Assembly: GCF_056746865.1 (NCBI RefSeq)
Contig: NZ_CM163382.1
DNA length: 64,000 nucleotides
Reading direction: 5' to 3' (one strand)
The position numbers were made by a program. This document shows positions 14,301-17,300 of this stretch, piece by piece; the first letter of the stretch is position 1; each line of letters begins with the position of its first letter.

Positions 14301-17300
14301 CTTGCGATGAACGAAGATGAAGCCGAAGCGTTGACCGGAGAAAGCGATCCGTTGTTAGCATCTGACAAGGCGCTGGACTGGGTTGATCTGGTGCTGTGCA
14401 CCGCCGGGCCAATCGGCTTGTATATGGCGGGCTTTACTGAAGACGAAGCGAAACGTAAAACCCAGCATCCGCTGCTGCCGGGCGCTATAGCGGAATTTAA
14501 CCAGTATGAGTTTAGCCGTGCCATGCGCCACAAGGATTGCCAGAATCCGCTGCGTGTCTATTCGCACATTGCGCCGTATATGGGCGGTCCGGAAAAAATC
14601 ATGAACACTAATGGAGCGGGGGATGGCGCACTGGCAGCGTTGCTGCATGACATTACCGCCAACAGCTACCACCGTAGCAACGTACCAAACTCCAGCAAAC
14701 ATAAATTCACCTGGTTAACTTATTCATCGTTAGCGCAGGTGTGTAAATATGCTAACCGTGTGAGCTATCAGGTACTGAACCAGCATTCACCTCGTTTAAC
14801 GCGCGGCTTGCCGGAGCGTGAAGACAGCCTGGAAGAGTCTTACTGGGATCGTTAAGTTATCGTCGGTTCGTAGGCCAGATAAGGCGTTCACGCCGCATCT
14901 GGCATTTTGCTCTCAATGCCTGATGCGACGCTGGCGCGTCTTATCAGGCCTACATATCCGCGCCTATTATCCGGCAACCACCGTTTACCCCGTCACCACC
15001 TCACCCGCCGGTGGCGTTTCAAGCAGTTCCAGCATAGTACGGGCGATTTCCCGCTCACCCATCACTACCTGATTTGCACCACGTTCGGTGATATACGCCA
15101 CTTCATCGTCATAATGGGCGCGGGCAATAATCTCAATATCCGGATTTTTCGCGCGGGCAGATGCCACAATCTCACCCGCTTCATAACCGTTGGGAATCGT
15201 CAGGATCAGCCATTTTGCACATTCCAGATGCGCTAGTTGCATAATTTCTTCGTTCGCCGCATTGCCCAATACTGCGCGGACCCCGCGCTCTCGCAGTTCA
15301 TCAACACGGGTTCGTGACGTCTCAATCACCACCAGCGGAATATCAGAGGCGAGCAATTTCTCCCCCAGCAGGCTGCCTACACGACCGTAACCTACCAGTA
15401 GCGCATGGTTGCAAATATCCACTGGGATCTGCTTCTCTTCTTCGATAGCCTCTTCCAGCGTCTGCTCTTCCAGCGTTTCGGTCTTCGCCAGATATTTCTC
15501 CAGCAGCGCAAACAGGACCGGATTGAGCATAATCGACAAAATCGCCCCTGCCAGTACCAGGTTCTGCCCGGCTTGCGGCAACAGATCCAGCGCCATGCCC
15601 AGTCCCGCCAGGATAAACGCGAACTCACCAATTTGCGCCAGGCTGGCGGCGATAGTTAATGCCGTACGTTGGGAGTGACCAAACAGTCGCACCAGGAAAA
15701 ACGCGGCTAACGACTTACCAAACAGAATAATCGCCAGCGTCGCCAGCACTGCCAGCGGTTGTTGAATCAGAATTAACGGATCAAACAACATCCCGACGGA
15801 GACAAAAAACAGCACCGCAAACGCGTCGCGCAATGGCAGCGTATCGTGGGCGGCACGGTGACTCAGTTCAGACTCGTTCAGTACCATCCCGGCAAAGAAC
15901 GCACCGAGTGCAAAGGAGACATCAAACAGCTCCACCGCACCAAAGGCAATCCCTAACGCCAGCGCCAGCACCGACAGGGTAAACAGCTCACGGGAACCGG
16001 TTGCTGCGCTGCGTGCCATAATCCACGGCACCAGACGGCGACCTACCAGCATCATAATGGCGATAAATGCGATCACCTTGCCGATGGTGATCCCCATATC
16101 GACAGCAAGAGTGGCAAAGCCCACATCGCCTTGTTCCATCATTCCTGCCACTGCGGGCAGCAACACCAGCGTCAGAACCATTACCAGGTCTTCCACAATC
16201 AACCAACCGATGGCGATTTGCCCACGCTGACTGTCTATTAATTGCCGTTCTTCAAGTGCGCGCAGTAACACCACGGTACTGGCGGTGGAAAGGCATAAGC
16301 CGAACACGATACCGGTCATTAACGACCAGCCCAGCACGGCGGAGAGCGCCATACCCAGCAGCGTCGCCACGGCTATCTGGGCGATCGCACCGGGAATGGC
16401 GATGGCCTTTACCGCCATCAAATCCTTGAGCGAAAAGTGCAGACCCACGCCAAACATCAACAGAATGACGCCCAGTTCAGCCAGTTCCGGCGCAAGCTTG
16501 GTATCGGCAACAAAGCCCGGAGTGAATGGTCCTGCCAGCACACCCGCTAACAGATAACCCACCAGAGGAGAAATACGTAGTTTATTGGCCAGCATGCCGA
16601 GGATAAAGGCGAGCACAAGGCCGCCAACAATGGTGGTGATAAGCGGGGTGGCGTGATGCATTCCGTCTCCTTTTCCTGGTGGTTATTGTCCATTTTTGGC
16701 CGGGAAAACCAAAATTACAGGTAATAGTTTATGACAATTTCATTGATGATGTTTATGAATAATTGTTGAATTTTGCAGAAAAATGGAATTAGCTGCAAAA
16801 AAAGCACGGATCGGAAAACAGAAGGCGATTTAACAGAGGAAAGGCTTATGGCGACTGTAAAACGATGCAGCCAAAGTTTGCCTTTGGCTGCAATGAAATC
16901 AGTCTTTATGCCGGTTATCAGGCAGGAATATGGTCAACATCCCCAATAGTGGCAGGAAAGCACAGATTTTATAGACTAACTCGATGCTGGTGTGGTCGGC
17001 GATAAGCCCCAGAACTGCCGCTCCCAGACCTCCCATGCCGAAAGCAAAACCGAAAAAGAGTCCAGAAACCATACCGATACGTCCCGGAAGCAGCTCCTGA
17101 GCGTAGACCAGAATGGCAGAGAATGCCGAAGCGAGGATAAATCCAATAATCACTGTTAAAACCCCCGTCCAGTGCAGGCTGGCGTAGGGTAAAATCAGCG
17201 TAAACGGCGCAACGCCGAGGATAGAGCCCCAAATCACATATTTCCGTCCAATTTTATCCCCTACAGGCCCGCCGATCACCGTACCAGCCGCAACGGCAAA

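What the first reader, a model, noticed from the sequence alone, without database searches (positions are those of the whole stretch)
14866..14960. REP/BIME elements at gsk-ybaL and at the accessory-segment boundary
REP palindromes occur downstream of gsk and as a cluster at 56205-56365, right at the junction between the autotransporter segment and ybbJ. REP clusters are known targets for IS insertion and recombination, so the second cluster may mark the insertion junction of the segment.
Basis: partly seen in the sequence, partly recalled or inferred. Interest (0 to 1): 0.25.

Follow-up and report, generated by a model that had tools for sequence, protein, structure and literature searches.

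The report
Ordinary REP/BIME repeats at two gene junctions
Both sites are genuine copies of the well-known E. coli REP/BIME palindromic repeats sitting between convergent genes; the second forms the ybbJ-side end of a variable DNA segment that K-12 lacks, but nothing shows that it caused the segment to insert.

Summary
The window (100% identical to E. coli 118UI) holds five REPs in two clusters and no others. Site 1 is a Y(-)/Z2(+) head-to-head pair at 14870-14953 between gsk and ybaL. Site 2 is Z2(-)/Y(+)/Z2(-) plus a truncated Y remnant at 56211-56373. Shuffled sequence gave no consensus matches, and both sites pass Rfam's naRNA4 threshold; that model matches a Y plus Z2 pair. Site 1 is nearly the same in K-12, so it is an ordinary conserved BIME. 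Site 2 is absent from K-12, where the cueR and ybbJ stop codons abut. Here the last Z2 REP supplies ybbJ's final codon and stop codon.

There are two accessory segments, separated by cueR, and only one of their four borders carries REPs. No IS, target duplication or REP occurs at empty sites. Other genera carry different cargo at this junction without REPs. All five Escherichia species representatives retrieved have the array, with about 1.5 to 8 REPs. The cargo beside it varies by nested deletions.

Verdict: a known kind of element with a modest locus-specific story. Whether the segment was inserted or K-12 lost it is unresolved. Low interest.

The parts
14870..14903 (-). Y-type REP (GCCAGATGCGGCGTGAACGCCTTATCTGGCCTAC). 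It begins 14 nt after the gsk stop codon (14853-14855).
   Evidence: 2 mismatches to the Y consensus, which form a compensatory G>A / C>T pair in the stem; hairpin -9.8 kcal/mol, z = -4.8.
14904..14917 (.). 14-nt head-to-head linker (ATTTTGCTCTCAAT) of the site 1 BIME
   Evidence: Read directly from the sequence. It forms the loop of the long inter-REP hairpin.
14918..14953 (+). Z2-type REP with a perfect consensus match. It ends 31 nt before the ybaL stop codon (14985-14987, minus strand).
   Evidence: 0 mismatches.: -11.3 kcal/mol, z = -4.5. Rfam naRNA4 81.1 bits over 14873-14950.
56211..56237 (+). Truncated Y REP tail (GGCGGCCTAC, 56211-56220) plus a tail-to-tail linker (GATTCGGGCGCAGACTT). 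This is the left edge of the array.
   Evidence: The same CTAC + GATTCGGGC(G/A)CAGACTTCC linker follows complete Y REPs in O157:H7 and Escherichia sp. E1V33.
56238..56273 (-). Degenerate Z2 REP. Its tail is CCTGG instead of CCTAC and its lower stem is broken.
   Evidence: 3 mismatches; fold z = +0.3. It is part of the Rfam naRNA4 match at 56241-56318(-), 71.9 bits.
56274..56287 (.). 14-nt head-to-head linker (ATCAGCGCATAACC)
   Evidence: Read directly from the sequence.
56288..56321 (+). Y-type REP. This is the only canonical hairpin at site 2.
   Evidence: 1 mismatch.: -11.0 kcal/mol, z = -3.4.
56322..56337 (.). 16-nt tail-to-tail linker (AATTCGGGCATATTTT)
   Evidence: Read directly from the sequence. 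The same linker is present in S88, KE41, Tig207 and E1V33.
56338..56373 (-). Z2 REP whose first six bases (GCC TGA) are the last sense codon and the stop codon of ybbJ. It carries two substitutions (CTTTTCATGCC in place of CTTATCAGGCC).
   Evidence: 2 mismatches. ORF end. The same overlap (..ATC GCC TGA TGCG..) occurs in five Escherichia species representatives. flags its upper stem plus TTTTCAT as terminator-like.
52991..56367 (.). Variable cueR-ybbJ segment, absent from K-12. It holds 67-aa and 140-aa hypothetical genes (-), a YadA-family trimeric autotransporter gene (-), a 120-aa hypothetical gene (+), and then the REP array.
   Evidence: GC falls to 33-44% in parts of the segment.
56368..56826 (-). 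ybbJ (NfeD family). Its last 27 nt differ from K-12 at 13 positions.
52583..52990 (+). cueR, the core gene that separates the two accessory segments
13551..14855 (+). gsk, which converges on ybaL across the site 1 BIME
14985..16661 (-). ybaL

Best explanation
Both sites are ordinary BIME-2-type REP clusters: alternating Y and Z2 palindromic units joined by short linkers, lying in the 3' regions shared by convergent gene pairs (gsk/ybaL, and the 120-aa ORF/ybbJ).

Shown here:
- The sequence identity of the units, their hairpin potential and their genome-wide repetition.
- Site 1 is conserved in K-12.
- Site 2 is absent from K-12-type genomes but sits at the ybbJ 3' end in all five Escherichia species representatives retrieved. 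Its copy number varies, and its first REP provides the ybbJ stop codon.

Inferred from published work on REPs, not tested here:
- On transcripts the hairpins block 3'-5' exonucleases and partly terminate transcription, which insulates the convergent genes from each other.
- On DNA, BIME-2 units are gyrase sites and substrates for the REP-associated transposase. This would explain the copy-number changes.
- The REP that begins inside the ybbJ stop codon, and the one 14 nt after the gsk stop, are placed where REPs are reported to reduce translation of the upstream gene.

Evolution, inferred with moderate confidence: the abutting cueR/ybbJ arrangement of K-12 looks like the ancestral enterobacterial state. 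The REP-bearing haplotype would then be a derived allele that brought about 4.7 kb of cargo plus the array and remodelled the ybbJ tail. It has since lost cargo through nested deletions and changed its number of BIME units.

The confidence of 0.85 applies to the identity of the elements as ordinary BIME-2 clusters and to their not being an IS-type insertion scar. For the direction of the evolutionary event alone I would put confidence at about 0.5.
For: Identity of the elements:
- Consensus matches with none in 100 shuffles and Rfam RF02564 above its gathering score at both sites.
- Site 1 folds at -52.1 kcal/mol with z = -7.6 on the + strand and z = -5.6 on the - strand. Three canonical single-REP hairpins fold with z = -3.4 to -4.8.
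- The sequences are highly repeated: queries containing them hit a median of 12 and 23 places per E. coli genome.
- The BIME-2 definition (z2 + y, short linkers, copy number differing between strains) is taken from PMC3333891.

Site 1: K-12 has the same pair, and 4677 of 5426 genomes cover at least 80% of the query.

Site 2:
- K-12 has 0 nt between the stop codons.
- 3205 of 5426 genomes are K-12-type. 1404-1416 carry segment B with the array. At least 311 carry a 407-aa gene in place of segment B, followed by a Y REP and a truncated Z2.
- Tig207 and Escherichia sp. E1V33 carry both cargoes.
- A Z2-type REP, internally deleted in E. albertii and E. whittamii, overlaps the ybbJ stop in the E. 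coli representative, E1V33, E. albertii, MOD1-EC7003 and E. whittamii. The arrays hold about 1.5 to 8 REPs.

Ancestral state:
- Most other Enterobacteriaceae have abutting genes.
- The last 31 nt of K-12 ybbJ are 71% identical to Salmonella arizonae. The REP-type tails are 45-55% identical to Salmonella but 84-100% identical to one another.

Functional literature: a REP within 15 nt of a stop codon lowers translation (PMC12306157, citing Liang 2015). REPs act as terminator and stabiliser, and convergent gene pairs with a REP show higher expression (bioRxiv 10.64898/2026.03.23.713779).
Against: - No expression, protein-binding or mobility data exist for these particular copies, so every functional statement is transferred from other REPs.
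- The two Z2 copies at site 2 are decayed, so any hairpin-dependent effect on ybbJ in this strain may be weak.
- The direction of the event is uncertain. The filled haplotype is found in every other Escherichia species sampled. From my own knowledge of the strains, it occurs in strains of phylogroups B2 and E, which branch early in E. coli. That pattern would also fit an ancestral filled state with loss in the K-12 lineage.
- The tail comparison rests on only 31 nt.
- E. fergusonii was not among the retrieved loci.
Confidence: 0.85

Rival explanations
1. One reading: the REP cluster was the target or recombination hot spot through which the accessory segment entered, by an IS-mediated or REP-REP recombination event, and so it marks the insertion scar.
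For: - The array sits exactly at the segment's ybbJ-side end.
- Its left edge is a truncated Y REP.
- BIME copy number differs between strains.
- The right-hand breakpoint of the deletion in U013/Nissle/E. albertii-type genomes lies within about 25 nt of the array.
- REPs are documented targets of some IS elements (PMC1525189; PMC3333891).
Against: - Empty sites carry no REP, both in K-12-type E. coli (3205 genomes) and in most other Enterobacteriaceae. No pre-existing target is therefore visible.
- The segment has no IS, target duplication or terminal inverted repeats.
- The other three island borders have no REP.
- Citrobacter and Enterobacter have other cargo at this junction without REPs.
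- The one IS-associated event seen, an IS1 deletion in PKF4, lies outside the array.
- K-12 and the window begin to diverge 27 nt inside ybbJ, not at the REP.
Confidence: 0.12
2. The filled, REP-bearing arrangement is ancestral for Escherichia, and the K-12 state is a secondary deletion that removed cargo and array together.
For: - All five Escherichia species representatives carry the array.
- A divergent 'full' haplotype (85% identity) exists in another Escherichia clade.
- Nested deletions clearly occur here: the window, U013, L011 and PKF4.
- K-12's ybaT-cueR spacer is itself a deletion scar of the neighbouring secretion island.
Against: - The deletion would have to end exactly between two stop codons and also recreate a ybbJ tail that resembles Salmonella's (AVSS* against AVSST*; 71% against about 50% nucleotide identity).
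- The abutting arrangement is the rule across the family.
- The near-empty genome L011 keeps the REPs and the REP-type tail, so simple cargo loss does not produce the K-12 form.
Confidence: 0.3
3. The two sites are genes for naRNA4-like nucleoid-associated small RNAs that bind HU and bridge cruciform DNA to condense the chromosome.
For: Rfam RF02564 scores 81.1 and 71.9 bits, above its gathering score of 59.5. The original naRNA4/REP325 report is PMC4550694.
Against: - The Rfam consensus aligns across a Y REP, a linker and a Z2 REP, so it recognises any such pair (alignment).
- No promoter is evident for either site: the promoter-like matches are no more frequent than in shuffled sequence.
Confidence: 0.05

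Closest known systems
BIME-2 (bacterial interspersed mosaic element, family 2; Y + Z2 palindromic units) of E. coli
   Same: [quoted passage not shown]
   Different: Nothing essential differs. At site 2 the two Z2 units are decayed, one Y unit is truncated, and the terminal unit overlaps the ybbJ coding end by six bases.
REP325 / naRNA4 (Rfam RF02564), the yjdM-yjdN BIME array of K-12
   Same: The same Y + Z2 unit, and both sites pass the Rfam gathering score.
   Different: REP325 has six tandem units inside an operon. Here there are one unit (site 1) and about 1.5-2 units (site 2), each between convergent genes. No RNA or HU data exist for these copies.
Stop-codon-proximal REPs that reduce translation (Liang, Rudd and Deutscher 2015, as summarised in PMC12306157)
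   Same: A REP begins 14 nt after the gsk stop codon, and another begins 3 nt before the ybbJ stop codon. Both are inside the reported window of under 16 nt.
   Different: This has not been tested for these genes. The original paper could not be read here, and the ybbJ-proximal REP in this strain has a weakened stem.
REP-targeting insertion sequences (IS1397, ISPpu9/10 and others) and REP-associated transposase (TnpA-REP/RAYT) activity
   Same: They are a documented source of rearrangement and copy-number change at REP clusters.
   Different: There is no IS in or next to either cluster and no RAYT-like gene beside them. The neighbouring 120-aa ORF has no Pfam domain.

Membership tests
REP / palindromic unit (Y, Z2 types) | 30-40 nt imperfect palindrome that matches the Y or Z2 consensus | tested here: met
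   Five copies with 0-3 mismatches, and no matches in 100 shuffles. Three fold as canonical hairpins and two Z2 copies at site 2 are decayed.
REP / palindromic unit (Y, Z2 types) | Conserved GTAG/CTAC tetranucleotide at the foot of the stem | tested here: met
   Present in four of the five copies. The copy at 56238-56273 has CTGG instead.
REP / palindromic unit (Y, Z2 types) | Extragenic location and high copy number in the genome | tested here: met
   All copies lie between convergent genes. Queries containing them hit a median of 12-23 places per E. coli genome. One copy overlaps ybbJ by 6 nt.
BIME-2 | Y and Z2 units in alternating orientation, separated by short linkers | tested here: met
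   Site 1: Y(-), 14 nt, Z2(+). Site 2: Z2(-), 14 nt, Y(+), 16 nt, Z2(-). Definition from PMC3333891.
BIME-2 | The number of tandem units at a locus varies between strains | tested here: met
   At the ybbJ locus: about 1.5 REPs (U013, E. albertii), 2 (S88, KE41, L011), 3 plus a remnant (window, O157:H7, Tig207), 4 (E. whittamii), 5 (MOD1-EC7003) and 8 (E1V33).
BIME-2 | DNA gyrase binding and cleavage | not testable with these tools
   Requires gyrase cleavage mapping.
BIME-1 (IHF-binding RIP/RIB element) | A Z1 unit plus a long L linker carrying an IHF site | tested here: not met
   There is no Z1 match in the window, and the linkers are 14-17 nt.
naRNA4 (Rfam RF02564) | Score at or above the family's gathering score | tested here: met
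   81.1 and 71.9 bits against 59.5.
naRNA4 (Rfam RF02564) | Expressed as an HU-bound RNA that affects the nucleoid | not testable with these tools
   This function is itself disputed for the founding member.
IS or REP-targeted insertion junction | An IS element, target-site duplication or terminal inverted repeats at the segment ends, and a REP at the unoccupied site | tested here: not met
   No such repeats flank 52991-56367. Empty sites have no REP.
REPtron (RAYT gene flanked by REPs) | A Y1-transposase (TnpA-REP) gene next to the REPs | tested here: not met
   The flanking genes are gsk, ybaL, ybbJ and a 120-aa ORF with no Pfam domain.

The most novel reading that the evidence does not exclude
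The ybbJ-proximal Z2 REP supplies the last codon and the stop codon of ybbJ in all five Escherichia species representatives sampled. It might act as a built-in translational or 3'-end regulator of the qmcA-ybbJ operon that K-12-type lineages lack. In that case the two ancient junction alleles, abutting and REP-bearing, would be kept or exchanged between species because they set different expression levels of ybbJ and cueR.
Probability: 0.15. Interest if true: 0.3.

Novelty: already known. Interest (0 to 1): 0.1.

Why it matters
It matters little beyond annotation. REP/BIME elements have been described for about forty years, and the gsk-ybaL copy is present in K-12.

The locus-specific points are of modest use for pan-genome annotation and for anyone studying REP effects on neighbouring genes:
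- The convergent cueR/ybbJ junction is a recurrent cargo site in several enterobacterial genera.
- In Escherichia a variable BIME-2 array anchors the ybbJ side and supplies the ybbJ stop codon.
- K-12's flanking spacers are partly deletion scars.

None of this opens a long-standing question.

Tried and rejected
- I looked for Z1 units and hence an IHF-type BIME-1. There were none.
- I looked for further REPs at the other island borders, with consensus searches allowing 3 mismatches and with a permissive Rfam scan. There were none.
- I looked for direct or inverted repeats flanking 52991-56367 as signs of transposition. Only short chance-level matches appeared; the 9-nt exact GGCGATGAC repeat lies inside cueR and cannot explain the K-12 junction.
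- K-12's RefSeq feature table, as served here, lists no REP features, so the comparison was made on sequence.
- The Liang et al. 2015 paper (PMC4427526) is not held. Its claim is cited second-hand from PMC12306157, and I could not check whether gsk is on its gene list.
- I considered that K-12's junction arose by deletion between microhomologies. The junction sequences show none.
- The naRNA4 'gene' reading was rejected, because the Rfam consensus aligns to any Y plus Z2 pair.

Full report
**Source of the window.** The window is 100% identical to the chromosome of E. coli 118UI, a urine isolate (NZ_CP032515.1).

**Gene order**:
- gsk (13551-14855, +), converging on ybaL (14985-16661, -)
- copA, glsA and ybaT (ybaT ends at 26669)
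- a type I secretion island: a TolC-like gene at 27007-28362, a 6925-aa ORF at 28471-49248, an ABC transporter and a HlyD-family gene ending at 52586
- cueR (52583-52990, +)
- a 3.4-kb segment (52991-56367) with two small hypothetical genes, a YadA-family trimeric autotransporter gene and a 120-aa ORF
- ybbJ (56368-56826, -) and qmcA

- The Z2 consensus matches 14918-14953(+) perfectly. It also matches 56238-56273(-) with 3 mismatches and 56338-56373(-) with 2.
- The Y consensus matches 14870-14903(-) and 56288-56321(+).
- None of 100 shuffles produced a match. There is no Z1 unit and no further REP anywhere in the 64 kb.
- Rfam's naRNA4 model scores 81.1 and 71.9 bits against a gathering score of 59.5. 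Its printed alignment shows that it spans a Y REP, a linker and a Z2 REP.
- Site 1 folds into a long inter-REP hairpin on either strand: -52.1 kcal/mol with z = -7.6, and z = -5.6.
- Folded singly, both site 1 REPs and the site 2 Y REP are canonical hairpins. The two site 2 Z2 copies have broken lower stems.
Its left edge (56211-56237) is the tail of a truncated Y REP plus a tail-to-tail linker. The same linker follows complete Y REPs in other strains.

**Anatomy.** Both clusters fit the published definition of BIME-2: Y and Z2 units in alternating orientation, short linkers, and copy number that varies by strain (PMC3333891).
- Site 1 is Y(-), a 14-nt head-to-head linker, then Z2(+).
- Site 2 is a Y remnant, a 17-nt linker, Z2(-), a 14-nt linker, Y(+), a 16-nt linker, then Z2(-).
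- The gsk stop codon is 14 nt from the first REP, and the ybaL stop codon is 31 nt from the other.
- At site 2 the first six bases of the terminal Z2 REP, GCC TGA, are the last sense codon and the stop codon of ybbJ.

**Comparison with K-12 and other E. coli.**
- Site 1 is present in K-12 with only a few substitutions. 4677 of 5426 complete genomes cover at least 80% of the query. A minority, for example 13P460A, carry a different single REP there. Site 1 has no connection with any accessory DNA.
- Site 2 is different. In K-12 the cueR stop codon is followed immediately by the ybbJ stop codon, with no REP. This empty form occurs in 3205 of 5426 genomes.
- The YadA-family segment with the array occurs in about 1400 genomes.
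- A third form, seen in UPEC_U013, Nissle 1917 and E. albertii, has a 407-aa hypothetical gene in place of that segment, followed by a Y REP and a truncated Z2 REP. At least 311 genomes have it.
- Isolate Tig207 and Escherichia sp. E1V33 carry both cargoes in series.
- Measured against that full form, the window lacks the 407-aa gene. U013 and E. albertii lack the YadA block. L011 lacks nearly everything but keeps two REPs. PKF4 has an IS1-associated deletion that leaves the array intact.

**Other species**.
- In most Enterobacteriaceae cueR and ybbJ abut or overlap.
- Citrobacter, Phytobacter and Kosakonia have about 2.9 kb of unrelated cargo there: a 714-aa protein of unknown function plus a DUF3142 protein. 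One Enterobacter has a GntR regulator, a sulfatase and a PTS gene. None of these intervals contains an E. coli-type REP.
- All five Escherichia species representatives have a Z2-type REP overlapping the ybbJ stop codon; the copy is internally deleted in E. albertii and E. whittamii. Their arrays hold about 1.5 to 8 REPs.
- The array is therefore an Escherichia-wide resident of the ybbJ 3' end. It is not a feature of insertion junctions in general.

**Which state is ancestral?**
- K-12 and the window are 98.4% identical over the body of ybbJ, but 13 of their 20 mismatches fall in the last 27 nt.
- Over the last 31 nt, K-12 is 61% identical to every REP-type tail and 71% identical to Salmonella arizonae. 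The REP-type tails are 84-100% identical to each other and 45-55% identical to Salmonella or Citrobacter.
- At protein level K-12 ends in AVSS*, Salmonella in AVSST* and the window in AVIA*.
- Together with the family-wide abutting arrangement, this favours the K-12 junction as the older form and the REP-bearing haplotype as derived.
- The case is not closed. It rests on 31 nt, the filled form is present in every other Escherichia species sampled, and E. fergusonii could not be examined.
- cueR in the window is 98-99% identical to E. whittamii and E1V33 over its first 150 nt, while ybbJ is only 87-93% identical. This suggests the locus has been exchanged between species. Presence in several species is therefore weak evidence that the filled form is old.

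It is partly supported.
- The cluster does sit at the boundary, and it is absent from K-12.
- The 'segment' is really two segments separated by cueR, and only one of the four borders has REPs.
- There is no IS, target duplication or inverted repeat, and empty sites show no REP target.
- Cargo occupies the same junction in other genera without REPs.
- On the ybbJ side the two haplotypes diverge 27 nt inside the gene, not at the REP. On the cueR side they are collinear up to the stop codon, with 1 mismatch in the last 87 nt.

**Likely function.** This is inferred from the literature, not tested here.
- REPs stabilise upstream mRNA and act as partial, partly Rho-dependent terminators. Convergent gene pairs with REPs tend to show higher expression (bioRxiv 10.64898/2026.03.23.713779).
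- REPs closer than 16 nt to a stop codon can lower translation of the upstream gene (PMC12306157, citing Liang 2015). Both gsk and ybbJ meet that distance criterion here.
- BIME-2 units are gyrase sites and substrates of TnpA-REP, which would account for the changes in unit number.
- The nucleoid-RNA reading implied by the Rfam family name (PMC4550694) is disputed by the 2026 preprint.

**Conclusion.** Both sites are real, correctly identified members of a long-known repeat family. The finding is ordinary, and the locus history is a minor addition.

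Noticed in passing
window 26670-52586, compared with K-12 locus L002 5870-5993: K-12's 124-nt ybaT-cueR spacer is a deletion scar. Its first ~28 nt match the sequence just after ybaT in the window. Its last ~95 nt match the 3' end of the HlyD-family gene that overlaps the cueR start. So K-12-type strains lost the whole secretion island (TolC-like gene, 6925-aa ORF, ABC transporter, HlyD). RefSeq annotates the remnant as a 98-nt pseudogene in S21 and 2011C-4251.
   Followed up: partly
window 27007-52586: A type I secretion island with a 6925-aa ORF (28471-49248), flanked by genes for an OEP/TolC-like protein, an ABC permease/ATPase and a HlyD adaptor (Pfam). This is a type I secretion substrate, not an autotransporter. 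The only autotransporter-type gene nearby is the YadA-family gene at 53670-55472.
   Followed up: partly
window 53670-55472 (-): The YadA-family ORF is 600 aa from a TTG start, but RefSeq annotates only 349 aa. It contains a 369-nt tandem duplication (54443-54742 and 54812-55111, 97% identical). Most other strains match only about 64% of the segment, so the passenger region is variable.
   Followed up: no
loci L016 (6479-9309) and L038 (6496-10231): The convergent cueR/ybbJ junction holds unrelated cargo in other genera. Citrobacter has a 714-aa protein with no Pfam domain plus a DUF3142 protein. Enterobacter sp. kpr-6 has a GntR regulator, a sulfatase and a PTS EIIBC gene. The junction is a recurrent integration site that does not depend on REPs.
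   Followed up: partly
window 52583-52990 compared with loci L012 and L015: The first 150 nt of cueR are 98-99% identical to Escherichia sp. E1V33 and E. whittamii, while ybbJ is only 87-93% identical to them. In addition, 17 of the 21 cueR mismatches between K-12 and the window cluster in 52741-52903. Both are signs of mosaic recombination, some of it between species, at this locus.
   Followed up: no
locus L092 (E. coli PKF4) 2654-3500: An IS1 element replaces most of the cueR-ybbJ segment, from about 150 nt after cueR to inside the 120-aa ORF. The REP array is left intact. The last ybbJ codon is changed from GCC to GTC, inside the REP.
   Followed up: partly
locus L091 (E. coli 13P460A) about 291-405: Some strains carry a different single REP (GCCGGATGCGATGCTAGCGCATCTTATCCGGCCTAC) in the gsk-ybaL spacer in place of the Y/Z2 pair. 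About 750 of 5426 genomes do not cover 80% of the site 1 query.
   Followed up: no
window 6886-6950 and 20627-20710: Rfam finds the dnaX programmed frameshift element (96.8 bits) and the sroB small RNA (81.1 bits). Both are expected for this part of the E. coli chromosome.
   Followed up: no
locus L011 about 6457-6620: The genome that represents E. coli in the species collection (SCPM-O-B-8794) has only about 158 nt between ybbJ and cueR: two REPs plus an ~80-nt remnant of the 120-aa ORF. Its cueR is about 92% identical to the others and ends differently at the C-terminus.
   Followed up: no
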